DNA of 22,789 nucleotides from Candidatus Thorarchaeota archaeon (GCA_046758445.1 JBHIAE010000045.1:1-22789), one strand, 5' to 3'; shown: positions 2,634 through 11,307, numbered from the stretch's first letter. Numbers and translations: made by a program. Notes: generated from the sequence alone by a model not told the origin.

Positions 2634-3707
2634 TTGAATCATCCTGCGCTGGTCGACCTACCGGACAACCTACGAGACCGTGATGTGTTCCATGACAAGG
2701 CAGGAAGAGTCTACGTCGCCCTAGGATACATCCAGCCCAAGGATCGAATTCTCTCATTCATCAAGTATGTGCCAGATGTAGAAGGCACATGGCAGGCTGA
2801 TGGTGTTAGATACACCAGGGTGTTCTGGGGCGGTGGGGTTTCAGCGACAAAAGGCATGGAGATAGTCCGCTCTGACTACCTAGTTCACGACGAACACTTT
2901 GGAACAGAACTCCTCGAGGTTCCGAGGGATGATGTCGCAAAATACTTCAGTCCAGAGCTCAGACTGAAGGAGATCATCGAAAAGGGTCAGAATGACAGAC
3001 TGGAGGGGGTTGTGGCACGAATGGCCACGACACTTCATGAGAGTCTGGAGATTCCTCTAGAGATGCTTGGAGTCACTGGGAGCATAGTCTGGAAGGCCCA
3101 TGATCCAAGCTATTCAGACATAAACATGAACATCTATGGGTTCGAAACCTCATGGCATCTTCAAGAAGGGTACGACAAGGTCGCAGAACTCAATGATCAC
3201 ATGCGTTTGCGTCAGATGTCGGAGTGGGAGAGGACCATGTCCAGGGTCGTAGAGCGAATCCCAGTGCTGCCTATAGATGACATGAGAAGGCTATTCACCA
3301 GGCGTAAGGGCCTCTATTGCGACGACCTAAGTATAGGTGTCATGCCAATTCTCCTTCCCGACGAAGCTCCAATCACACATGGCAGTGAGTCATACACCAC
3401 TGTGACACCTGCGCCTGTCCGTGTCGAAATGGAGATCACTGGTGACCAATACGGTCTGTTTCTCCCTGCTCTCTACGAGGGTCAGTCTAAAGCTCTCGAT
3501 GTCATCGGTGGCGAGCATGTTTCCAGGATAATGGTATATGAAGGCTCATTCAGGGGGCTCATCCAGCATGGGGACACTGTGGAGGTATCGGGCATCATTC
3601 AGAGAGTCACTCCCAAGGCCCCGAAAGACGAAGTCTTCTATCAACTGATGGTCGGTTCGAAGGTAGGAGCCGGTAGAGAGTTCATTCGACTCATCAGCGA
3701 GAACTAG
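2634..3707 (+). CDS. COG1665-like Pol-beta-superfamily nucleotidyltransferase (degenerate DxD)
   Basis: N-terminal LRDRD; GVTGSIVW...SDINMNIYG; C-terminal beta-rich (OB-like) segment ...VEVSGIIQRV. Co-linear with the 3704..4783 protein. Confidence 0.75.
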   Translation: MNHPALVDLPDNLRDRDVFHDKAGRVYVALGYIQPKDRILSFIKYVPDVEGTWQADGVRYTRVFWGGGVSATKGMEIVRSDYLVHDEHFGTELLEVPRDDVAKYFSPELRLKEIIEKGQNDRLEGVVARMATTLHESLEIPLEMLGVTGSIVWKAHDPSYSDINMNIYGFETSWHLQEGYDKVAELNDHMRLRQMSEWERTMSRVVERIPVLPIDDMRRLFTRRKGLYCDDLSIGVMPILLPDEAPITHGSESYTTVTPAPVRVEMEITGDQYGLFLPALYEGQSKALDVIGGEHVSRIMVYEGSFRGLIQHGDTVEVSGIIQRVTPKAPKDEVFYQLMVGSKVGAGREFIRLISEN

Positions 3708-4783
3708 AATTCAACTGCGCCTAGCGTCTTAATGACATTGGCCTCCCACCCAGGGACGTAGCTTATCGCTATCTGATCATACTCCGTTCTTCTTCGTTCC
3801 ACATGCTCAAGGACGCCTGAAACCAGTACTTCTTCATCCTTGAAGGCCATCATTCGGAATTGTTCGATGTAGTTGAGAACTCTTGACGGTGATGCACTCG
3901 TATCGCCATCCAGCACTTCGAGGGTCTCAATCCCATACTCACTTGGCATGTAATAACCATCGTCATGATCTGTGATCCTCGCCCTGACAGTGATTCGATC
4001 TCCCGGAGTCATTGCTGCATCCTCGGCCAAGTTGTCTATCTCATTAAATCTACGAATGGGCTCAAACTCTACCTTGAGAAATGGCTGACGTGCACCCGGG
4101 AGTATTCCGTAGATGCCTTTCCGACGATGGTGGGCAATGATCTCCTCCCGCGTTATCGCAGTAAAAGGCGAGGGCTTCTCTAGGAACTGTTCCACCTCGA
4201 CGATGAACTCATTGGCTAGATATCCATCGGGTTCATCATACCATTCAAGCAGATATGATCGAAGCCTCTCGTACGTCTTCTTCCCGAAAACAGTGATGTC
4301 TAAATCAGAGAACTGCGGATGGTAGATTCCGGCAAGAAGGCTACCGAATATCCCAAGATCAGACTCTCTGATTGGTGTATTGTCTTTGAGATAGTCTATG
4401 AGCTCGACCAGCAGGTTTGCCAGGAGATCATCCGGTGGAGAGGCAAGCATCTCTTTCAGACTTCTATCGCTTCTAAGCTCTCTCTTGATGTCAGGATGTT
4501 TCACTCCGACAAGAGTGGTATCAAGAGGAGGATAATGAACTTGAAACTGAGGATATCTTTCGTTCACAAATTCGACACCTTCAGATCCGTAGAACTTGCA
4601 GTAGCCCTTCCTTCGTATCCTTCGTTCCAACAGAGTATCGGACTTGAAGATGTACATGGGTACGTACTCAGGATCGCAGACATATCCTGCATTAGGATGC
4701 CAGTAGCCATAGACACGAAAGAAGATACCTGGTTCGGTAAGTATCAAATCGCGGTCTCTGAGAGTAGTAGATTGTTCAGGCAT
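3704..4783 (-). CDS. COG1665-like Pol-beta-superfamily nucleotidyltransferase
   Basis: LRDRD; GIFGSLLAG...SDLDITVFG (intact GS-DxD); C-terminal VRARITD...VLVSGVLEHV. Confidence 0.8.
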   Translation of the reverse strand: MPEQSTTLRDRDLILTEPGIFFRVYGYWHPNAGYVCDPEYVPMYIFKSDTLLERRIRRKGYCKFYGSEGVEFVNERYPQFQVHYPPLDTTLVGVKHPDIKRELRSDRSLKEMLASPPDDLLANLLVELIDYLKDNTPIRESDLGIFGSLLAGIYHPQFSDLDITVFGKKTYERLRSYLLEWYDEPDGYLANEFIVEVEQFLEKPSPFTAITREEIIAHHRRKGIYGILPGARQPFLKVEFEPIRRFNEIDNLAEDAAMTPGDRITVRARITDHDDGYYMPSEYGIETLEVLDGDTSASPSRVLNYIEQFRMMAFKDEEVLVSGVLEHVERRRTEYDQIAISYVPGWEANVIKTLGAVEF

Positions 4784-4790
4784 TATCGCA

Positions 4791-4896
4791 ACCGTTCATT
4801 GTTAGTTGGACAATCTTGGACACCGAAGCACTGCCCACCCAGGAAACGGCACTGGGCTCGACTCCGTGAGGTATGTTCTGTGTCAGGTCGACCTCA
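4791..4896 (-). ncRNA. Candidate structured RNA, copy A (unassigned family; possibly the leader of the nucleotidyltransferase gene)
   Basis: Stems TGAGG/CCTCA, CGGAGT/GCTTCG and GCCCAG/CTGGGT covary with copy B. G-U pairs form only on the minus strand. TATA-like box lies 28 nt upstream. Confidence 0.65.
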
Positions 4897-4917
4897 CTGA
4901 GATGTCCTGGGCTTGAG

Positions 4918-4928
4918 CATATAAGCAC
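4918..4928 (-). promoter_or_regulatory. TATA-like box GTGCTTATATG for copy A
   Basis: Conserved with GTGCTTTTATA at 9833-9843. The first T is 28 nt from TGAGG in both copies. Confidence 0.55.
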
Positions 4929-5048
4929 CTGTACAACTTTGTCCAAGCTTTTGGCAGCTGTTAGCAACCCTGTCCGTCGAGATATGCCATTCAAGCCCGA
5001 TGATAATCTTTCCTTTCAACAACCAGACTCATTAGGAAATACAACCTA

Positions 5049-6119
5049 ATGGTACCCGTGTCGTCCGGAAGGTCGTATGTGAAAACGAAGGCCGGCGATG
5101 GCGAGAGGGCTAGAAGAGCCCTCCTTGAGGCCAAACTCCTAGATACAGAGTACAAGATAGTGGACGAGGCCCAGGACCTGTATTTTCCACTATCGAGGAA
5201 GGTAACCAAGGCCAAACTGAAGAAGATTCTTGATGACATAGACTTTGAAACCGGCAAGAGAGAGTTTGTGTCAGCGAGTATTGGCCCAAAGACGCTTTCC
5301 GATGCCCTTGAGGGACTACTGCCTGACGACCTACACGAGTATCTGCCGAGAGCCTATGACCTCATTGGAGATATCGCTGTACTTGAGATACCCGATGAGC
5401 TTGTTGACTTCGGCAGACAGATTGGTTCAGCCTTTCAGTCACTGCACAAGAACTTCTCAACAGTCTTAGGCAAGAGGGGAGCAATCTCGGGGACGACGAG
5501 AGTACGCCAATACGACCTTCTGGCAGGTCAGAGAAAGACCAAGACTATACACACGGAGTATGGCTGCAATATTGCAGTTGACATGGCAAAGGCGTACTTC
5601 AGCCCGAGGCTCCTTGAGGAGCACAATAGGATAGCAGACCTCGTCGTCGATGACGAAACAGTAGTTGATATGTTCACAGGTGTGGGTCCGTTCGCCCTTC
5701 ATATTGCAAGGCGACACAGGGCTAAGGTCTATGCCATTGACGTCAACCCAGATGCAATTGACCTGCTCAGAGAGAGCATGGAGCTCAATCGATTCATCGG
5801 AGAAATCATCCCTATTCTTGGAGATGCACATGATTATGTTCAGAGCAGTTTCGATGGTGATGTCGATCGTGTGATAATGAACCATCCGGCTGGGGCCTTT
5901 GAATTCGTCAAGGATGCCTGCAGGGCTCTGAGGGTGGGAGGGATCATGCATTACTATGATTTTGCAGGCGGGGATGACCCAGAGAGCAGCTTTCAGAAGA
6001 AGATTGAGGGCCTTGTGAGTGAAACTGGCAGAGGAGTCGAAACTGTTCAATTAGTTCGAAGGGTTCGTGATAGCGCTCCCTACGAATACCAGATGGTTGC
6101 AGATCTAGTCATTCGCTGA
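5049..6119 (+). CDS. trm5: tRNA (guanine37-N1) methyltransferase, Trm5 family
   Basis: YDLIGDIAV, HTEYGC, YFSPRL, DMFTGVGPF, IDVNPDA, RVIMNHP; N-terminal D1 domain present. Confidence 0.88.
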   Translation: MVPVSSGRSYVKTKAGDGERARRALLEAKLLDTEYKIVDEAQDLYFPLSRKVTKAKLKKILDDIDFETGKREFVSASIGPKTLSDALEGLLPDDLHEYLPRAYDLIGDIAVLEIPDELVDFGRQIGSAFQSLHKNFSTVLGKRGAISGTTRVRQYDLLAGQRKTKTIHTEYGCNIAVDMAKAYFSPRLLEEHNRIADLVVDDETVVDMFTGVGPFALHIARRHRAKVYAIDVNPDAIDLLRESMELNRFIGEIIPILGDAHDYVQSSFDGDVDRVIMNHPAGAFEFVKDACRALRVGGIMHYYDFAGGDDPESSFQKKIEGLVSETGRGVETVQLVRRVRDSAPYEYQMVADLVIR

Positions 6120-6534
6120 CGAAGAGGAGCACACACTCGATTACAGCGTCTGGATTCTTCAGTTTCTCTATGAAAGAGCGATCCAGGTCTGAAGCAGCCT
6201 TGTCAGCCTGGACCATCAACGTTCGTCCACACACAAAGGAGCTCTTCCGAGCTACCATACTGACAGGGTCTGAGTACGTGAGTCTTGGGTCACCTCGTCC
6301 CCTGATTTCTTCTGTTTTCTCCTCCACAGTAAGCCTCAGAGCAATGCTTGTCTTCTGGGATGCAGCAAGTGCCTTTATGGTAGAGTTCAGGGCCGCCAAT
6401 GTCTGCTCTGCTCGAACGCCGACAATACATGTACCTCTCCTAGTGAGACTAGCCTCTGATGTGATTTCAACGGTATTCCCATGTTCGCCGATGACATTCT
6501 CGTGGCCGAATGCTCTGAAATGCACTGTGTGCAT
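6109..6534 (-). CDS. DUF371 family protein
   Basis: GHENV..H..T.EIT....LT.RG.CIVGV, MVARKSSFVCGRTL and ADKAASDLDR match the DUF371 pattern. Confidence 0.85.
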   Translation of the reverse strand: MHTVHFRAFGHENVIGEHGNTVEITSEASLTRRGTCIVGVRAEQTLAALNSTIKALAASQKTSIALRLTVEEKTEEIRGRGDPRLTYSDPVSMVARKSSFVCGRTLMVQADKAASDLDRSFIEKLKNPDAVIECVLLFVSE

Positions 6535-6593
6535 GATTCTTGCATTGCGCTCAACGCTTTTATCAATGCATGTCTTCTTCTCCGATGATTGTG

Positions 6594-7277
6594 ATGCGTG
6601 ACAGCTCCTTCGAGAGGCAGATTGAAACCCTTGCTCAGAGTCTACGCCGAAGAGGATATCTCAGGAGCGAGAGTGTTGAGCGAGCGCTCAGAACGGTCCC
6701 CAGAGAGGAGTTTGTGTTGCCAGGGTCCCGAAAACAGGCATATCGAGATTCACCATTATCTATAGGTCTTGGCCAGACCATATCGGCTCCCCATATGTGC
6801 GTCATAATGTGCGAAGGATTAAGGCTTGAGGAGGGACACACAGTTCTAGAGGTCGGTGCTGGGTCGGGCTACCATGCTGCTCTATGTGCCGAGGTTGTCG
6901 CACCGAAGGGGTCGTCCAATCCTGGTCATGTGTATACGATTGAGATAGTCAAAGGACTGATTGACTTTGCAGAAGAGAATCTCAAAAGGTCTGGTTATGC
7001 CGACAGAGTGACTGTGATACATGGTGATGGCGGAAAAGGGCTTCCCGAGCACGCTCCCTTTGACAGAATGCTTGTTGCTGCTGCTGCCCCCGATATACCT
7101 CCTCCGTTGGTCAATCAGCTTAAGCCAGGCGGAATCCTTCTGATTCCTGTAGGGTCCCGAGGCTTCTATCAAGAGCTGATGATGGTCGAAAAGGACCAAG
7201 ACTCCAACGTGACGAAGAGACGTTGGGGCGGTGTGGCGTTTGTACCGCTGACGGGCGAATATGGTCACGGTCGTTGA
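6594..7277 (+). CDS. pcm: Protein-L-isoaspartate O-methyltransferase
   Basis: VPREEF, AYRDSPL.IG.GQTISAPHM, VLEVGAGSGY, APFDRM, QLKPGG.L.IPVG, VAFVPL. Start moved from 6540 to ATG 6594 (6585 also possible). Confidence 0.93.
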   Translation: MRDSSFERQIETLAQSLRRRGYLRSESVERALRTVPREEFVLPGSRKQAYRDSPLSIGLGQTISAPHMCVIMCEGLRLEEGHTVLEVGAGSGYHAALCAEVVAPKGSSNPGHVYTIEIVKGLIDFAEENLKRSGYADRVTVIHGDGGKGLPEHAPFDRMLVAAAAPDIPPPLVNQLKPGGILLIPVGSRGFYQELMMVEKDQDSNVTKRRWGGVAFVPLTGEYGHGR

Positions 7278-7984
7278 GCTTCGCTGAACACGTGCAGAGG
7301 CATTACGGAGAGCCTTACAGTATCGTTGTCCTTCAGCTTGAGCTTGGTTCTTAGATTGAAGGGCGATATGACCTCCAGAATATCCTGTCCATGGTGGGTC
7401 CGTTGGGCGATGACTACAGCACCATCCACCTCTCCATTCACCTTTACGCGATAGCAGACAACATCTCCAAATGTTCGTCCTTCGAGAGTGAAGCCTGTGA
7501 CAATTAGAGGAGGAGTCTGTTTCATTCTGTTGATTGCAGTCCGTGAGTTCTCGTCGACTATCTTCACGTTGAGCGTGCCAGAGAATGGCTCAAAACCAAG
7601 GCCCTTCTTGAATCTTGATGAGTACACCTCCACGTAATATGCTCCCTCACCAAGACCATCTATCACACGCCCTTCTATGACAATCTCCTCTTCACGAGGC
7701 GCGAGAGCGAACTCCAGACCTGTCATCACTTCGCTGAGCTCTTTGACGCCCTTCTTTGTCAGCTGAATCAGCATGCCACTGACAGTGTGCACCTTGGTCA
7801 CATATCCCTCCTCGGCACAGAATGAGATTCTACGAGATGCAGTCTGTTGGCTAACACCAAGCATCTCTCCCAGTTTCTGTGTAGTCAGGATAGCTCTACT
7901 GTGGATTGCCCCCTCCCTAGCCAAAACGTAGAGTGTGAACCAAACATCAGGTGCTATCATGACAGTCAGTTCTCCAAGCTCCAC
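7265..7984 (-). CDS. ribK: CTP-dependent riboflavin kinase with N-terminal winged HTH (RbkR type)
   Basis: HTH LGEMLGVSQQTASRRI; kinase motifs GLGEGAYYV, PFSGTLN, RTHH, LEVISPFNLR. Confidence 0.92.
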   Translation of the reverse strand: MELGELTVMIAPDVWFTLYVLAREGAIHSRAILTTQKLGEMLGVSQQTASRRISFCAEEGYVTKVHTVSGMLIQLTKKGVKELSEVMTGLEFALAPREEEIVIEGRVIDGLGEGAYYVEVYSSRFKKGLGFEPFSGTLNVKIVDENSRTAINRMKQTPPLIVTGFTLEGRTFGDVVCYRVKVNGEVDGAVVIAQRTHHGQDILEVISPFNLRTKLKLKDNDTVRLSVMPLHVFSEAQRP

Positions 7985-7988
7985 CCAT

Positions 7989-8639
7989 TTATCGATTACC
8001 GCTCATTCGGTCTTCAAGACCTCTCAGCTCCCTCACGAGCTTCTCTTGCTGTATTGCTGACGTGATGCTTCCACGTGTCCGTTCGATAATTGATCTTGCA
8101 ACATCACACTTCCTTCTGAGGTCAGGTATCAGAGCATTTGGAAAGTCAAACGTCTGAATCTCATCGAAGATCTCCTCCATGAACCCCAGTAGAGTGACCG
8201 CGCGGTCGACCTTTTCTTGCCTAATCGAATCAAGCACGGCTCTCCTAAGCTCTCCCACCGTGTCAGCGAGACCAGTCAGATATGCTCTGGCTGGAATATC
8301 ATATTGCTGAGGAAGTGTGAAGACACCATCCTTCAGCAGAGACAGTAGGTTAGAGGCCTCAGCCAACTCCTGAAAAGCAACATCAAGACTCCTTGAACGG
8401 GACATGAAATCGCTGGCCTTCATCTCGGTCAGAGCATTCTGGATGATGTCCCGAGCCTCAGACAGTAGCTGAGAGGCCATCTCAAAGTTACCTCTATGGG
8501 TTTCCTTTATTGACTCACTGCACCGTCTCACCGCTGACCTTGATAACGGAAGTGTCTTCTCGCGGACTACGTCATCAGACTCGATTTCGGTTCTCAGAGG
8601 TTCAAGTATCTCAGATAGCTTCATGGCTGTCGCCATCAC
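7989..8639 (-). CDS. Translin/TRAX-family (archaeal C3PO-like) RNase
   Basis: D.VRE...LSR, FQELAEA, YLTGLADTVGELRR, LRRKCDVARSIIERT. Confidence 0.85.
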   Translation of the reverse strand: MMATAMKLSEILEPLRTEIESDDVVREKTLPLSRSAVRRCSESIKETHRGNFEMASQLLSEARDIIQNALTEMKASDFMSRSRSLDVAFQELAEASNLLSLLKDGVFTLPQQYDIPARAYLTGLADTVGELRRAVLDSIRQEKVDRAVTLLGFMEEIFDEIQTFDFPNALIPDLRRKCDVARSIIERTRGSITSAIQQEKLVRELRGLEDRMSGNR

Positions 8640-8644
8640 CTCGT

Positions 8645-9610
8645 CTACTGTATCTTCTTTATTACTTTGCTACGTGACAGAAGTACTACTCTGCTCTTGA
8701 TCTGCTCGTCTTGTACATAGTAGCCTGTTAGGGCAGACAGCTTCTCAGAGAAAGCACGAATCTCCCGGTGTGATGGTGCACTCGATTGACTCAATCGGCT
8801 CCTAGATGAACCAAGGTGCATGTAGCCTTTTACCTCAATGAAGTCTGGCTCACCCTTCAGAATCGTTCTCGCATAGGAGCGCGGCTTGTGCATGTTCTGA
8901 CTGGCAACCATTGTAAGACGATTCACCCGACGACAGGAGAGCGACTGGAGCAGCTCTTGCGACTCGTTGAGTCGTTTCCATCCGTCACCAATACTTGGCC
9001 TGCATAGTATGGCGTAGGTTCGCTCATCTGGCGCGGCTATTGTGATGTAAAGCTGTGTCGGGAGCGACACTTCAGAGAGAACATCTGGTTGTGTTCCATT
9101 GGTCACCAAAAAGGTCGTCATTCCCCGTTTTGTTCCTTCATCAATCAGATCACTCAGGAAAGGATATAGCGTCGGTTCGCCTGCTAAGGAGATTGCTAGG
9201 TGCCTCGGTTCTCTAGCTTCGTTGTACTTCTCCTCCTGCACCTCAGCTCCGGCTTCAGGGTTGTATCCCCCCAGAGAACGAAGATTGGCCATCATAGTTT
9301 CATCAAGCAGATCCGATGCTGACATTACGTCGTCCTCAACCAAGCTTGACTGATTCCAATCTATGCCTATGTCTGCCGGAGTCACTCGCCAACAGAAGCT
9401 ACAACTCTGAGTGCACTTATCGACTACCGGAGTCATCTGAAGACACCTATGGCTCTCGATTCCGTAGAAGCGCTCTTTGTAGCAGACATCACCATGGAGC
9501 AGACTCTTTCTCTGCCACTGGCATGCCTTGTATGCTCCACGCTCGCCCAGTAGATGATACCCCTGCCGCTTGAGCCTCTCTCTCAATTCTGTTGGCATGT
9601 TCGACCTCAA
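8645..9610 (-). CDS. tyw1: 4-demethylwyosine synthase (radical SAM)
   Basis: CYKERFYGIESHRCLQMTP, CTQSCSFC, ISLAGEPTLYP, FLVTNGT, EVKGYMHLGSSR. Confidence 0.95.
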   Translation of the reverse strand: MRSNMPTELRERLKRQGYHLLGERGAYKACQWQRKSLLHGDVCYKERFYGIESHRCLQMTPVVDKCTQSCSFCWRVTPADIGIDWNQSSLVEDDVMSASDLLDETMMANLRSLGGYNPEAGAEVQEEKYNEAREPRHLAISLAGEPTLYPFLSDLIDEGTKRGMTTFLVTNGTQPDVLSEVSLPTQLYITIAAPDERTYAILCRPSIGDGWKRLNESQELLQSLSCRRVNRLTMVASQNMHKPRSYARTILKGEPDFIEVKGYMHLGSSRSRLSQSSAPSHREIRAFSEKLSALTGYYVQDEQIKSRVVLLSRSKVIKKIQ

Positions 9611-9832
9611 TGCTGCGGTCGGTCAGACAGAGCCATGTCTTAAAGAAGTTGTTCAGGAGAATTCGCAGACTTAAAGCGTGCCCACAAGAATAGCCCTCTG
9701 TATCATACTCTAGTGAGGCTCGTGTCTGTGACCAATAATCAATGCACGGATAGGGTATCTAGCAGCAGAGAACTTGGAGAAAGTTGAACATTCATTAGAA
9801 GACTGTTGAATCAACAAGGACACTTCGGTGAT

Positions 9833-9843
9833 GTGCTTTTATA
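9833..9843 (+). promoter_or_regulatory. TATA box GTGCTTTTATA for copy B
   Basis: TTTTATA at 9837-9843. Typical archaeal spacing places the start site near 9865-9867, the base of the first stem. Confidence 0.6.
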
Positions 9844-9864
9844 CTCAGTTCCCGAACAACATCT

Positions 9865-9970
9865 TGAGGCTAACTCGACACAGTTTCAGACCTCAGGGAG
9901 TTCATCCCAGTGCCGTTTCTGGGAGGACACTACTCCCGTGTCCAAGTTTGTCCAACTTACAATAAACGGT
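9865..9970 (+). ncRNA. Candidate structured RNA, copy B (free-standing)
   Basis: Stems TGAGG(9865)/CCTCA(9891), GGGAGT(9896)/ACTCCC(9932) and TCCCAG(9905)/CTGGGA(9919). Loop GCCGTTT is complementary to 3' AAACGGT(9964). No credible plus-strand CDS follows. Confidence 0.65.
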
Positions 9971-10041
9971 AGAGCCTGTGGACTAGTTGGCAAGGGCCGA
10001 TAGAATGAAGCAGGAAGCCACAAACTTCAATCGATGGCAGT

Positions 10042-11307
10042 TCACGAGGATTTAGCAACATCCCTGTTCGAGGCGAGTTTCGTAGCGAACGATTCCTGGG
10101 CACTCCAAGACCCCGTCAGTATCCCTCTTCTTGAGAACTCGCCTAGTGTGCTGCGACTGTCTGCGTCCAGACGCCCGGGTGGCATGTTCTCGAAGGCGCT
10201 TCCCGGGAGTGGCATGAACACGTGTCCATGAACCCTTGCTCCCATCTCCGCGAGTCTCTCGCACATGTAGATGCTAGCGCTCAATTCCTCGGCGGTTTCT
10301 CCCGGAAGACCGAATATCATGTCAACGTGAGGAATGAAACCACTGTCAAGAGCTGTACGGATTGCATCTAGCCCTTCGCTAACAGAATGATGACGATTGC
10401 AGAGGTCTAGAACCCTGTCACTTGCGGACTGAAGCCCAATCTGAAGAGTTTCATTTGACACGTAGGAGCGCATTGTGTCTAGAGCCCCCTTTGTGATGAA
10501 CTCTGGTCTGACTTCTGACGGGAACGCTCCAAAGAAGACCTCCTCAAGACCATCTACCGAGGTAGTTTCCTTCAACAGCTGTTCCAGTCTGTCTAGACTC
10601 ACCTCTCGTCCTCTTCCGCCATATGATAGTGCGTTTGGAGAGAGTAGCCAAGTTCGTCTGAATCCTCTCCTCTGGACTGCTTGGTTCAGCCACCTGACGA
10701 CCGAATCTGCAGATCTGTGTCTTACCCCTCCGCCAGTCAGAAATGGTGTGCAGCAATACTTACAGGCGAAGGAACATCCTCGAGTCACCTCGATTGGACC
10801 TAGAACGTTCATATCAAGTGCGAAAGGTGGATGGTCATCTAACACCACCTTGGGAAGGCGCATTGGAATTGGATATGAGTCCACCCTCTTAGAAACGACT
10901 CCCTCAATCCCCTGAGGGTCCTTGTCATTCATCAAGTGCCAGAGCACATCGGGGAAGACCTTCTCGCCTTCTCCAACGACCACGCAATCAAACCCAGCCT
11001 CTAGGAGATCTGCGGGACGCGCACTTGCGTGAGGGCCGCCCCCTATCAATGTCACCGAGTCGCCAAATTGCTTCTTGACGCTCCTACTCTCATCAAACAC
11101 ACGCTCTGTCTGTGTGCTCATCACAGACTGAGCAACCATGACTGGGCCCTTCTCAATCGCCTTCTGAATCATACCGGCGGAAATCTCAAGGGGCGCACTG
11201 ACCTGCAGCTCTGTCAGTCGACTGTCCATCTCAACGGCGCCTAATAGGGCTGCCACGCTATACCTCGAAGATGAATGGGCTCTGAAGATGAGTTGATGCG
11301 GCCCCAA
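10042..11307 (-). CDS. B12-binding domain/radical SAM protein (TIGR04013-like)
   Basis: GGGPHAS, VVGEGE, EVTRGCSFACKYC, PSEVRPEF, IGLQSASDRVL, DMIFGLPGE, FMPLPGS. Confidence 0.85.
   Translation of the reverse strand: MGPHQLIFRAHSSSRYSVAALLGAVEMDSRLTELQVSAPLEISAGMIQKAIEKGPVMVAQSVMSTQTERVFDESRSVKKQFGDSVTLIGGGPHASARPADLLEAGFDCVVVGEGEKVFPDVLWHLMNDKDPQGIEGVVSKRVDSYPIPMRLPKVVLDDHPPFALDMNVLGPIEVTRGCSFACKYCCTPFLTGGGVRHRSADSVVRWLNQAVQRRGFRRTWLLSPNALSYGGRGREVSLDRLEQLLKETTSVDGLEEVFFGAFPSEVRPEFITKGALDTMRSYVSNETLQIGLQSASDRVLDLCNRHHSVSEGLDAIRTALDSGFIPHVDMIFGLPGETAEELSASIYMCERLAEMGARVHGHVFMPLPGSAFENMPPGRLDADSRSTLGEFSRRGILTGSWSAQESFATKLASNRDVAKSS

What the first reader, a model, noticed from the sequence alone, without database searches (positions are those of the whole stretch)
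4791..9970. Candidate novel pseudoknotted ncRNA in two diverged, TATA-preceded copies (4791-4896 minus; 9865-9970 plus)
Seen: two intergenic 106-nt segments align at about 78% by hand count, and the substitutions preserve pairing. The outer stem is CGGAGU/GCUUCG versus GGGAGU/ACUCCC (C-G to G-C swap, G-U to G-C, U-G to U-A). The inner stem is GCCCAG/CUGGGU versus UCCCAG/CUGGGA. The 5' stem UGAGG/CCUCA is invariant. The invariant loop GCCGUUU pairs with the 3' terminal GAACGGU/AAACGGU (possible pseudoknot). GUGUC(C) can pair with the invariant loop-1 GACAC or with internal-loop GGRCA, giving a second pseudoknot or a switch. A TATA box sits exactly 28 nt before UGAGG in both copies. G-U wobbles fix the strand, and single-base indels rule out a shared reading frame. 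Inference: this is a transcribed, structurally selected RNA (riboswitch, ribozyme or RNP scaffold). It matches no tRNA, rRNA, SRP, RNase P, C/D, riboswitch or ribozyme consensus that I recognise.
Basis: partly seen in the sequence, partly recalled or inferred. Interest (0 to 1): 0.9.

Follow-up and report, generated by a model that had tools for sequence, protein, structure and literature searches.

The report
Gene-less IS607 mini-transposons carrying TnpB guide RNA
The two "novel RNA" copies are real, structured and pseudoknotted. They are the guide-RNA (omegaRNA) scaffold of a TnpB-type nuclease, carried on 178- and 216-bp protein-less IS607-family mini-transposons in an Asgard archaeon, which is a new example of a known kind of element.

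Summary
The two 106-nt segments are about 80% identical, share a TATA box at the same distance, and fold into a covariation-supported structure with three pseudoknot helices.

They are not a new RNA class:
- The genome has about 16 copies. Related Thorarchaeota genomes have up to 63 or more matches, a number capped by the search.
- All 24 TnpB-linked loci examined carry the same RNA across the end of the gene (19 full-length genes of 699-763 aa plus five shorter or truncated ones), which is where omegaRNAs lie. The protein has a Cas12f/TnpB fold.
- The window copies are internal-deletion derivatives made of left end, promoter, guide-RNA scaffold and right end.
- Close relatives have empty sites with no target duplication. 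GG sits at both junctions and the target is (G)GG, as in IS607.
- 8.6-kb autonomous relatives encode an IS607 serine transposase.

The most likely role is to supply TnpB in trans with a guide against the unoccupied insertion site. Function in this genome is uncertain: both TnpB copies are N-terminally truncated and no transposase was found.

No Rfam family matches the RNA. Mobilised standalone omegaRNAs are already described in the literature. This scan has also reported the same kind of element in other Thorarchaeota genomes.

The parts
4792..4969 (-). Mini-element A, 178 bp: GG, left end, promoter, guide-RNA scaffold, right end, GG.
   Evidence: Precisely absent from congeners G010, G007, G004, G006 and G012. 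Empty site is ..ACAG GG TTGCGAT... Length is 178.
4926..4967 (-). Left end of A, with two TTGGAC-like subterminal repeats. These are an inverted match of the right-end GTCCAA repeats.
   Evidence: Aligns to the left end of the full-length TnpB element of G018 (L052:762..). Conserved in all full-size copies.
4917..4924 (-). TATA-like box TTATATGC, 27-28 nt before UGAGG.
   Evidence: Same spacing in copy B and in copies from G023. Its role as an archaeal promoter is inferred.
4792..4896 (-). OmegaRNA-like scaffold A: P1 UGAGG/CCUCA, P2 CGGAGU/GCUUCG, P3 GCCCAG/CUGGGU, plus three pseudoknot helices.
   Evidence: CM R1 scores it 109.5 bits.
4772..4791 (-). Putative guide of A, the right flank. It overlaps the ATG (4783) of the NTP_transf_2-domain gene 3704-4783.
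   Evidence: Flank begins where homology among copies ends. It matches the empty site of G010 next to ..CAGGG. The 20-nt length is an assumption.
9754..9969 (+). Mini-element B, 216 bp. Same plan as A, with about 41 nt more of the left end retained upstream of the TATA box.
   Evidence: 86-90% identical over about 209-222 nt to the copies on contigs C9 and C20 (88-91% over about 170 nt). Length is 216. Congeners have a 1-85 nt spacer at this locus in place of the 430-nt spacer here.
9837..9844 (+). TATA-like box TTTTATAC.
9865..9969 (+). OmegaRNA-like scaffold B.
   Evidence: CM R1 scores it 125 bits. All six helices are intact.
9970..9989 (+). Putative guide of B, the right flank.
   Evidence: Variable flank after AACGG. 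No second match in the genome with up to 3 mismatches.

Best explanation
Each window copy is a non-autonomous, protein-less derivative of an IS607-family transposon of Thorarchaeota (Asgard archaea). The parent element carries a TnpB-like RNA-guided nuclease of about 710-760 aa. Its guide RNA (omegaRNA or reRNA) is encoded across the end of the gene and stops at the transposon's right end.

The mini-elements keep:
- the left end with its subterminal repeats;
- a TATA promoter;
- the roughly 105-nt scaffold;
- the right end.

Transcription from the TATA box would run through the scaffold into the flanking DNA, so the flank becomes the guide. The scaffold folds into three stems locked by three long-range helices. 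One of these pairs a hairpin loop with the last bases before the guide, which is the pseudoknot typical of TnpB and Cas12 guide RNAs.

Loaded onto a TnpB made elsewhere in the genome, the RNA would direct cutting of the unoccupied site (..WGGG followed by the flank). That favours re-copying of the element by recombination. Mobility itself would come from an IS607 serine transposase acting in trans at the GG dinucleotides.

What is shown here: the element's identity, boundaries, mobility, covarying fold and link to TnpB. What is inferred: transcription, TnpB loading, cleavage and the homing role.
For: Link to TnpB:
- Copies on contigs C6 and C38 follow ORFs with the Pfam Cas12f1-like TNB domain and D-E-D motifs.
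- All 24 TnpB-linked loci tested carry the RNA at the 3' end, across or just past the stop codon. They comprise 19 full-length genes of 699-763 aa from other genomes and five shorter or truncated ones.
- The AF2 model of the protein (pLDDT 78) matches Cas12f, IS607 TnpB 8iaz, ISDra2 TnpB 8h1j and Fanzor2.

Mini-element origin:
- The 5' part of the window units aligns to the left end upstream of full-length tnpB.

Mobility:
- There are about 16 copies here.
- 23 of 36 genomes of the same taxonomic family have the RNA, with up to 63 matches each, capped by the search.
- G023 has subfamilies of near-identical copies with sharp ends and no target duplication.
- Empty sites exist for three copies.

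IS607 hallmarks:
- GG lies at both junctions, the target is (G)GG, and there is no duplication. This matches PMC6188088.
- The autonomous relatives are ordered left end, IS607 TnpA (NCBIfam transpos_IS607, 175 bits against a cut-off of 110; MerR-HTH plus resolvase), a 1,800-aa ORF, TnpB, RNA.

Fold:
-. The pseudoknot next to the guide matches the principle described in PMC10097598.

Other:
- The G-rich motif beside the left end resembles the GAGGG TAM of bacterial IS607 TnpBs (PMC11061315).
- Standalone omegaRNAs acting in trans are described in PMC10691335 and PMC10055086.
Against: - In this assembly (92.7% complete) both related TnpB genes are N-terminally truncated. C6 covers aa 191-711 and C38 covers aa 435-711 of the 711-aa form.
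- No IS607 TnpA, Y1 TnpA or Cas1 was found in this assembly. The window copies may therefore have neither nuclease nor transposase now.
- Several genomes with 50 or more copies lack an intact cognate TnpB, for example G026, G028 and G022.
- The protein reaches the NCBIfam TnpB and Cas12f models only below their cut-offs, and only over its C-terminal third.
- Some copies in this genome have lost the 3' pseudoknot (C14a, C14b, C8a).
Confidence: 0.85

Rival explanations
1. Inert relics. The identity is as above, but in this genome the two copies are dead insertions. Their RNA, if made, has no partner nuclease and no role. The fold is inherited rather than maintained.
For: - Both TnpB genes are truncated and no transposase was found in G000.
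- Copies within G000 are 10-25% diverged from each other.
- Three copies have a decayed 3' pseudoknot.
- Genomes with many copies but no intact TnpB exist.
Against: - Both window copies keep all six helices and the TATA box.
- Helix P1 has changed by compensatory substitutions relative to the coding version in tnpB (UGAAUG/CAUUCA to UGAGG/CCUCA). This implies selection on RNA pairing after the coding constraint was lost.
- The C6 TnpB frame is open for 528 aa with the D-E-D motifs intact.
- The assembly is incomplete.
Confidence: 0.3
2. An autonomous cellular non-coding RNA (riboswitch, ribozyme or other RNP scaffold) unrelated to TnpB.
For: - Strong covariation.
- Its own promoter-like TATA box.
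- No Rfam match.
Against: - The same RNA ends every TnpB-like gene of this family examined.
- Copies have no constant neighbour or orientation.
- Copy number runs from 0 to more than 60 among related genomes.
- Close relatives have empty sites.
Confidence: 0.03
3. The conserved pairing reflects DNA-level signals for the transposase (end recognition) and not an RNA fold.
For: - The GTCCAA repeats of the right end are an inverted match of the TTGGAC repeats of the left end.
- IS607 TnpA binds subterminal repeats (PMC6188088).
- Part of the conservation is therefore probably DNA-level.
Against: - IS607 TnpA acts on double-stranded repeats and does not need intrastrand helices.
- 24 of 34 pairs covary.
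- G-U cells outnumber A-C cells 123 to 44.
- The helices that covary (P2, P3, loop to 3' end, GGACA to UGUCC) are not the left-end/right-end repeat pairs.
Confidence: 0.07
4. Exapted mobile promoter or leader. The units matter to the host because their outward-reading promoter drives the adjacent gene. At copy A this is the NTP_transf_2-domain gene, which starts 8 nt after the right end.
For: - Copy A displaced the gene's native upstream region by 178 bp.
- Copy A's TATA box now lies about 135 nt before the ATG.
Against: - Copy B and most other copies do not face a gene start.
- The insertion is absent in close relatives, so any such role is recent and local.
Confidence: 0.1

Closest known systems
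Mobilised standalone (effector-less) omegaRNAs of OMEGA systems, and PATE-like minimal IS elements that encode omegaRNAs. Source: Altae-Tran et al. 2021 as summarised in PMC10691335, and Meers et al. in PMC10055086.
   Same: - Protein-less mobile units that keep the transposon ends and the guide-RNA scaffold.
- They occur alongside effector-bearing elements.
- The guide is the flanking DNA.
- They are thought to work in trans.
   Different: - These are archaeal (Thorarchaeota) and IS607-type, not IS200/IS605-type.
- They carry an archaeal TATA promoter directly in front of the scaffold.
- They outnumber intact TnpB genes by up to about 50 to 1.
- They occur in genomes where no intact partner was found.
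IS607-family TnpB with its reRNA (RAGATH-18-derived; ISFba1, PDB 8iaz; PMC11061315), and IS607 transposition (PMC6188088).
   Same: - Serine TnpA with an N-terminal MerR-like HTH.
- GG crossover, (G)GG target and no duplication.
- Subterminal repeats.
- A G-rich motif beside the left end, comparable to the GAGGG TAM.
- A TnpB fold.
   Different: - The RNA does not match RAGATH-18 or any Rfam model.
- It overlaps the end of the ORF, whereas the ISFba1 reRNA lies wholly downstream.
- The nuclease is about 710-760 aa, against about 390 aa.
- The autonomous form is 8.6 kb and has a 1,800-aa ORF between tnpA and tnpB.
ISDra2 TnpB omegaRNA (PDB 8h1j; PMC10097598).
   Same: - The scaffold is encoded at the 3' end of tnpB.
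- The bases just before the guide form a pseudoknot with an upstream segment.
- The guide lies outside the right end.
   Different: - No sequence similarity.
- Here the pseudoknot partner is a hairpin loop.
- Two further long-range helices exist.
- The transposase type differs.
aCas1-associated TnpBs of Asgard archaea (Cas1H-Asgard-1 and -2; PMC10691335).
   Same: - Asgard TnpBs.
- A conserved T precedes a hypervariable stretch downstream of tnpB.
   Different: - The conserved GTTCACTCA motif downstream was not found.
- No Cas1 lies next to the elements.
- The neighbouring giant ORF gave no Cas1 signal by Pfam or PDB sequence search.
- Membership is not shown.

Membership tests
TnpB omegaRNA / reRNA (OMEGA guide RNA) | Encoded on the sense strand at the 3' end of tnpB and ending at the transposon's right end. 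| tested here: met
   All 24 TnpB-linked loci give a CM hit across or just after the stop codon. The element ends at AACGG by the empty-site comparison.
TnpB omegaRNA / reRNA (OMEGA guide RNA) | Scaffold bases next to the guide form a pseudoknot with an upstream segment. | tested here: met
   Loop GCCGUUU pairs with AACGGU in 94.6% of cells, with C-G to U-A changes. The principle is described in PMC10097598.
TnpB omegaRNA / reRNA (OMEGA guide RNA) | The guide is the variable DNA flanking the right end and matches the empty site next to a TAM. | tested here: met
   Flanks differ in every copy. The empty sites read WGGG followed by the flank.
TnpB omegaRNA / reRNA (OMEGA guide RNA) | The RNA is expressed, bound by TnpB, and directs DNA cleavage. 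| not testable with these tools
   No RNA run is listed for this DNA.
IS607-family transposon (non-autonomous derivative) | Insertion at a GG dinucleotide, GG at both termini, no target-site duplication. | tested here: met
   Three empty-site and filled-site pairs. The flank statistics agree. Compare PMC6188088.
IS607-family transposon (non-autonomous derivative) | A related autonomous element encodes a serine TnpA with an N-terminal MerR-like HTH. | tested here: met
   L122:1719-2339 hits NCBIfam transpos_IS607 at 175.5 bits against a cut-off of 110, and Pfam HTH_17/MerR plus Resolvase. The same left-end motif lies just upstream. No such gene was found in G000 itself.
IS607-family transposon (non-autonomous derivative) | Short subterminal repeats in both ends. 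| tested here: met
   Two TTGGAC-like repeats in the left end and two GTCCAA repeats in the right end, in all subfamilies.
TnpB / Cas12f superfamily (the partner protein) | RuvC D-E-D triad, C-terminal zinc-ribbon TNB domain, and a TnpB/Cas12f fold. | tested here: met
   - Pfam PF07282 at E = 1e-15.
- Invariant D487, E596 and D689.
- Foldseek probability 1.00 to Cas12f, TnpB and Fanzor2.
- The NCBIfam guided_TnpB model is reached only below its cut-off, 60.7 against 100 bits.
Rfam RAGATH-18 (reRNA of bacterial IS607 TnpB) | Match to covariance model RF03064. | tested here: not met
   No hit on any copy of the element. The only hit is weak, 25.5 bits against a gathering score of 44.9, and lies just outside copy B at 9975-10016.
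Riboswitch or cis-regulatory leader | Constant position upstream of a related set of genes. | tested here: not met
   The neighbours and orientations of the 16 copies are unrelated.
aCas1-associated Asgard TnpB groups | An adjacent Asgard Cas1, and a conserved GTTCACTCA motif after the hypervariable stretch. | tested here: not met
   The motif is absent within 200 nt of 21 copies. Cas1 loci carry no copy of the RNA. The giant neighbouring ORF shows no Cas1 signal by sequence. Its fold was not tested.

The most novel reading that the evidence does not exclude
The promoter-bearing mini-elements form a dispersed, heritable repertoire of guide RNAs. One TnpB uses them in trans, which would make this a transposon-borne analogue of a CRISPR array in an Asgard archaeon. 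Alternatively, some copies have been taken over by the host, either as RNA-guided regulators or as mobile promoters. They persist, structurally intact, even in genomes where no cognate nuclease or transposase was found.
Probability: 0.12. Interest if true: 0.6.

Novelty: new member of a known kind. Interest (0 to 1): 0.35.

Why it matters
It settles what this conspicuous, well-folded repeat is, so it will not be mistaken for a new riboswitch or ribozyme class.

It also yields a covariation-supported fold and a covariance model for a guide RNA that Rfam lacks.

It links that RNA to an unusually large TnpB-like nuclease family (about 710-760 aa) that is widespread in Thorarchaeota. It also gives likely TAM and target rules, (W)GGG followed by T.

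For people working on OMEGA systems, this is an archaeal IS607 lineage in which guide-only units carry their own promoter and greatly outnumber the nuclease. That is useful material for testing trans use of guides and for mining new editors.

Tried and rejected
- Rfam: no match to the element at gathering or at E-value thresholds.
- Single-sequence MFE folding is not distinctive, with z-scores of 0.1 and -1.4. Only the comparative analysis shows the structure.
- Putative guides: no second genomic match with up to 2 mismatches for any of 16 copies, so there is no sign of trans targets in the genome.
- Public runs: no RNA holder is listed. Only the hydrothermal-vent DNA samples that probably gave the assembly hold the sequence.
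- Y1 TnpA (PF01797) was not found in G000, G018, G022, G023 or G028. This led away from the IS200/IS605 mechanism.
- Cas1 is present in G022, G023 and G028, but those loci hold no copy of the RNA.
- The GTTCACTCA motif of the aCas1-TnpB groups was not found.
- The idea that the ORFs 240 aa upstream of tnpB in G018 and G023 were syntenic was rejected. They are unrelated proteins.
- The giant ORF of the autonomous element gave no Pfam, NCBIfam or PDB-sequence hit.
- A precise empty site for copy B was not obtained. Congeners lack a larger 403-bp stretch there.
- Two papers (PMC110970, PMC7307682) are not held in the library.


Full report
**1. Observation**

The two segments are as described. 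They align at 86 of 108 columns with four one-base gaps. Homology continues upstream through a shared TATA-like octamer at identical spacing, and then into a further conserved block. In copy B a 41-nt insertion interrupts it. Rfam gives no match at gathering thresholds.

**2. Copy number**

- blastn and a covariance model built from 11 copies (R1) find 14-16 copies on 12 contigs of this 3.25-Mb, 113-contig assembly.
- The genes in the window mark it as archaeal: Trm5, a wyosine radical-SAM enzyme, a proteasome subunit and CTP-dependent riboflavin kinase.
- Earlier notes of this scan call the genome Thorarchaeota, an Asgard lineage. I did not test that myself.

**3. The link to TnpB**

On contigs C6, C38 and C61 the 3' half of the repeat directly follows coding sequence that ends ...YFYCEQCDKHFHSDVNAAGNIIHVQD.

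- The C6 and C38 ORFs carry the Pfam Cas12f1-like TNB domain.
- Full-length homologues in related genomes are 699-763 aa. D487, E596 and D689 are invariant and the zinc-ribbon cysteines are present.
- An AlphaFold model built from 19 homologues (pLDDT 78, pTM 0.64) matches Cas12f, IS607 TnpB (8iaz), ISDra2 TnpB (8h1j) and Fanzor2 at Foldseek probability 1.00.
- Sequence models recognise only the C-terminal third, and below the curated cut-offs.
- All 24 TnpB-linked loci tested carry the RNA across or just after the stop codon, on the sense strand. They comprise 19 full-length genes and five shorter or truncated ones. This is the defining position of an omegaRNA.

**4. What the window copies are**

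The full-size gene-less units are about 178 bp (type A) or about 216-219 bp (type B), with sharp ends: 5' GG-T(T/A/G)(G/T)C..ACAGCT.. and 3' ..ACAATGAACGG.

- Their 5' block aligns to the sequence upstream of full-length tnpB in G018 and upstream of the C38 gene. It is therefore the transposon's left end.
- Type B simply retains more of that left end.
- The units are thus internal-deletion derivatives made of left end, promoter, guide-RNA scaffold and right end.
- All copies lie between genes, with no constant neighbour or orientation.

**5. Mobility**

- In 23 of 36 genomes of the same taxonomic family the model finds the RNA, with up to 63 matches, a number capped by the search.
- Full-length TnpB homologues number 0-14 per genome.
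- In G023, twenty copies fall into subfamilies of near-identical sequence, with unrelated flanks and no target-site duplication.
- Copy A is precisely absent from five congeners. The copies on C9 and C20 are precisely absent from G007 and G010.

The three empty sites read as follows:

| Copy | Empty site |
|---|---|
| A | ..ACAG-GG-TTGCGAT.. |
| C9 | ..AGAG-GG-TGTGGAGG.. |
| C20 | ..CTTAG-GG-CATGTC.. |

The filled sites have GG at both junctions. Across clean copies, the base before the left GG is G and the base after the right GG is T.

At the copy B locus, congeners have a 1-85 nt spacer where this genome has 430 nt. Copy B is therefore also lineage-specific. The missing stretch (9643-10045) is larger than the element itself.

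**6. Which transposon family**

No Y1 transposase was found in five genomes. GG at both termini, a (G)GG target, no duplication and short subterminal repeats are the published signature of IS607-family serine transposition (PMC6188088).

Three loci in G023 and G018 have the same order: left-end motif, a 177-206-aa protein, a 1,764-1,838-aa ORF on the other strand, the TnpB-like gene, then the RNA. The short protein has a MerR-like HTH plus a resolvase domain. The G023 protein L122:1719-2339 hits NCBIfam transpos_IS607 at 175 bits against a cut-off of 110.

The family therefore exists in three tiers:
- autonomous, about 8.6 kb;
- tnpB-only, about 2.3 kb;
- gene-less, about 0.2 kb.

The G-rich motif beside the left end resembles the GAGGG TAM measured for some bacterial IS607 TnpBs (PMC11061315).

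**7. The fold**

I tested six helices.

| Helix | Pairing |
|---|---|
| P1 | UGAGG / CCUCA |
| P2 | (C/G)GGAGU / ACUCC(G/C) |
| P3 | CCCAG / CUGGG |
| Pseudoknot 1 | P3 loop GCCGUUU with the terminal AACGGU |
| Pseudoknot 2 | P1 loop GACAC with GUGUC |
| Pseudoknot 3 | GGACA (between P3 and the 3' strand of P2) with the second UGUCC |

- On 45 sequences, 90.6% of cells pair, against 33-45% in slid controls. 24 of 34 pairs show changes on both sides, and no shuffle reached any observed measure.
- The three pseudoknot helices were not part of the model used to align the sequences.
- G-U cells outnumber A-C cells 123 to 44.
- In tnpB-linked copies P1 is formed by the codons of the RuvC-III motif (UGAAUG...CAUUCA). 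In the gene-less units it reads UGAGG...CCUCA. This points to selection on pairing after the coding constraint was lost, which is my inference.
- A pseudoknot formed by the bases next to the guide is the feature reported as conserved among TnpB and Cas12 guide RNAs (PMC10097598).

**8. Function**

By analogy with IS605 and IS607 systems (PMC10055086, PMC11061315), the transcript would run into the flank. TnpB would then use that flank as a guide to cut the empty site and promote re-copying of the element. Standalone omegaRNAs are reported to work in trans (PMC10691335).

- No guide here has a second target in the genome.
- In this assembly both TnpB genes are N-terminally truncated and no transposase was found.
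- Activity in this organism is therefore uncertain. Expression could not be tested.

**9. Novelty**

This is a known kind of element, in a lineage and with an RNA that no curated family covers. The scan reached the same conclusion earlier for look-alike elements in other Thorarchaeota genomes. I read those notes only after forming my own view.

Noticed in passing
window 9975-10016 (+), and 9643-10045: Five nt after copy B there is a weak match to Rfam RAGATH-18, the RNA of bacterial IS607 TnpBs. It scores 25.5 bits against a gathering score of 44.9. The outer helix and the GAUGAAGCAGGAA motif are kept, and the inner part is shortened. The whole 403-bp stretch is missing from congener G007, and its last 40 nt has weak repeats elsewhere. 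It may be a relic of a second IS607-type element.
   Followed up: partly
L122:2320-7836 (-), L123:2272-7566 (-), L124:1344-6812 (-): The autonomous 8.6-kb elements carry a 1,764-1,838-aa ORF between tnpA and tnpB. It has no Pfam, NCBIfam or PDB-sequence match. An earlier scan note calls it Cas1-like, which I could not confirm by sequence. Its fold was not examined.
   Followed up: partly
L052:928-3063 (+) and 18 homologues (alignment A6): The TnpB-like nuclease is nearly twice the usual size. About 480 mostly helical residues precede RuvC-I, and sequence models do not recognise them. Recurrent shorter forms starting near residue 190-220 occur in several genomes, including the C6 copy of this genome.
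   Followed up: partly
window 4772-4969 and gene 3704-4783 (-): Copy A inserted 8 nt before the start codon of a nucleotidyltransferase-domain gene. This moved the gene's native upstream region 178 bp away. The element's own TATA box now reads into the gene.
   Followed up: no
G000 contig C38:97-1284 (L016): The first roughly 120 residues of the rearranged C38 TnpB ORF are similar to sequences on contigs C102, C37, C85 and C2. This suggests another repeated module fused to the truncated nuclease.
   Followed up: no
window 5049-11307: tRNA-modification genes cluster around the two insertions: Trm5/Tyw2-type methyltransferase (5049-6119), a wyosine-formation radical-SAM enzyme (8645-9610) and a B12-binding radical-SAM enzyme (10042-11307).
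   Followed up: no
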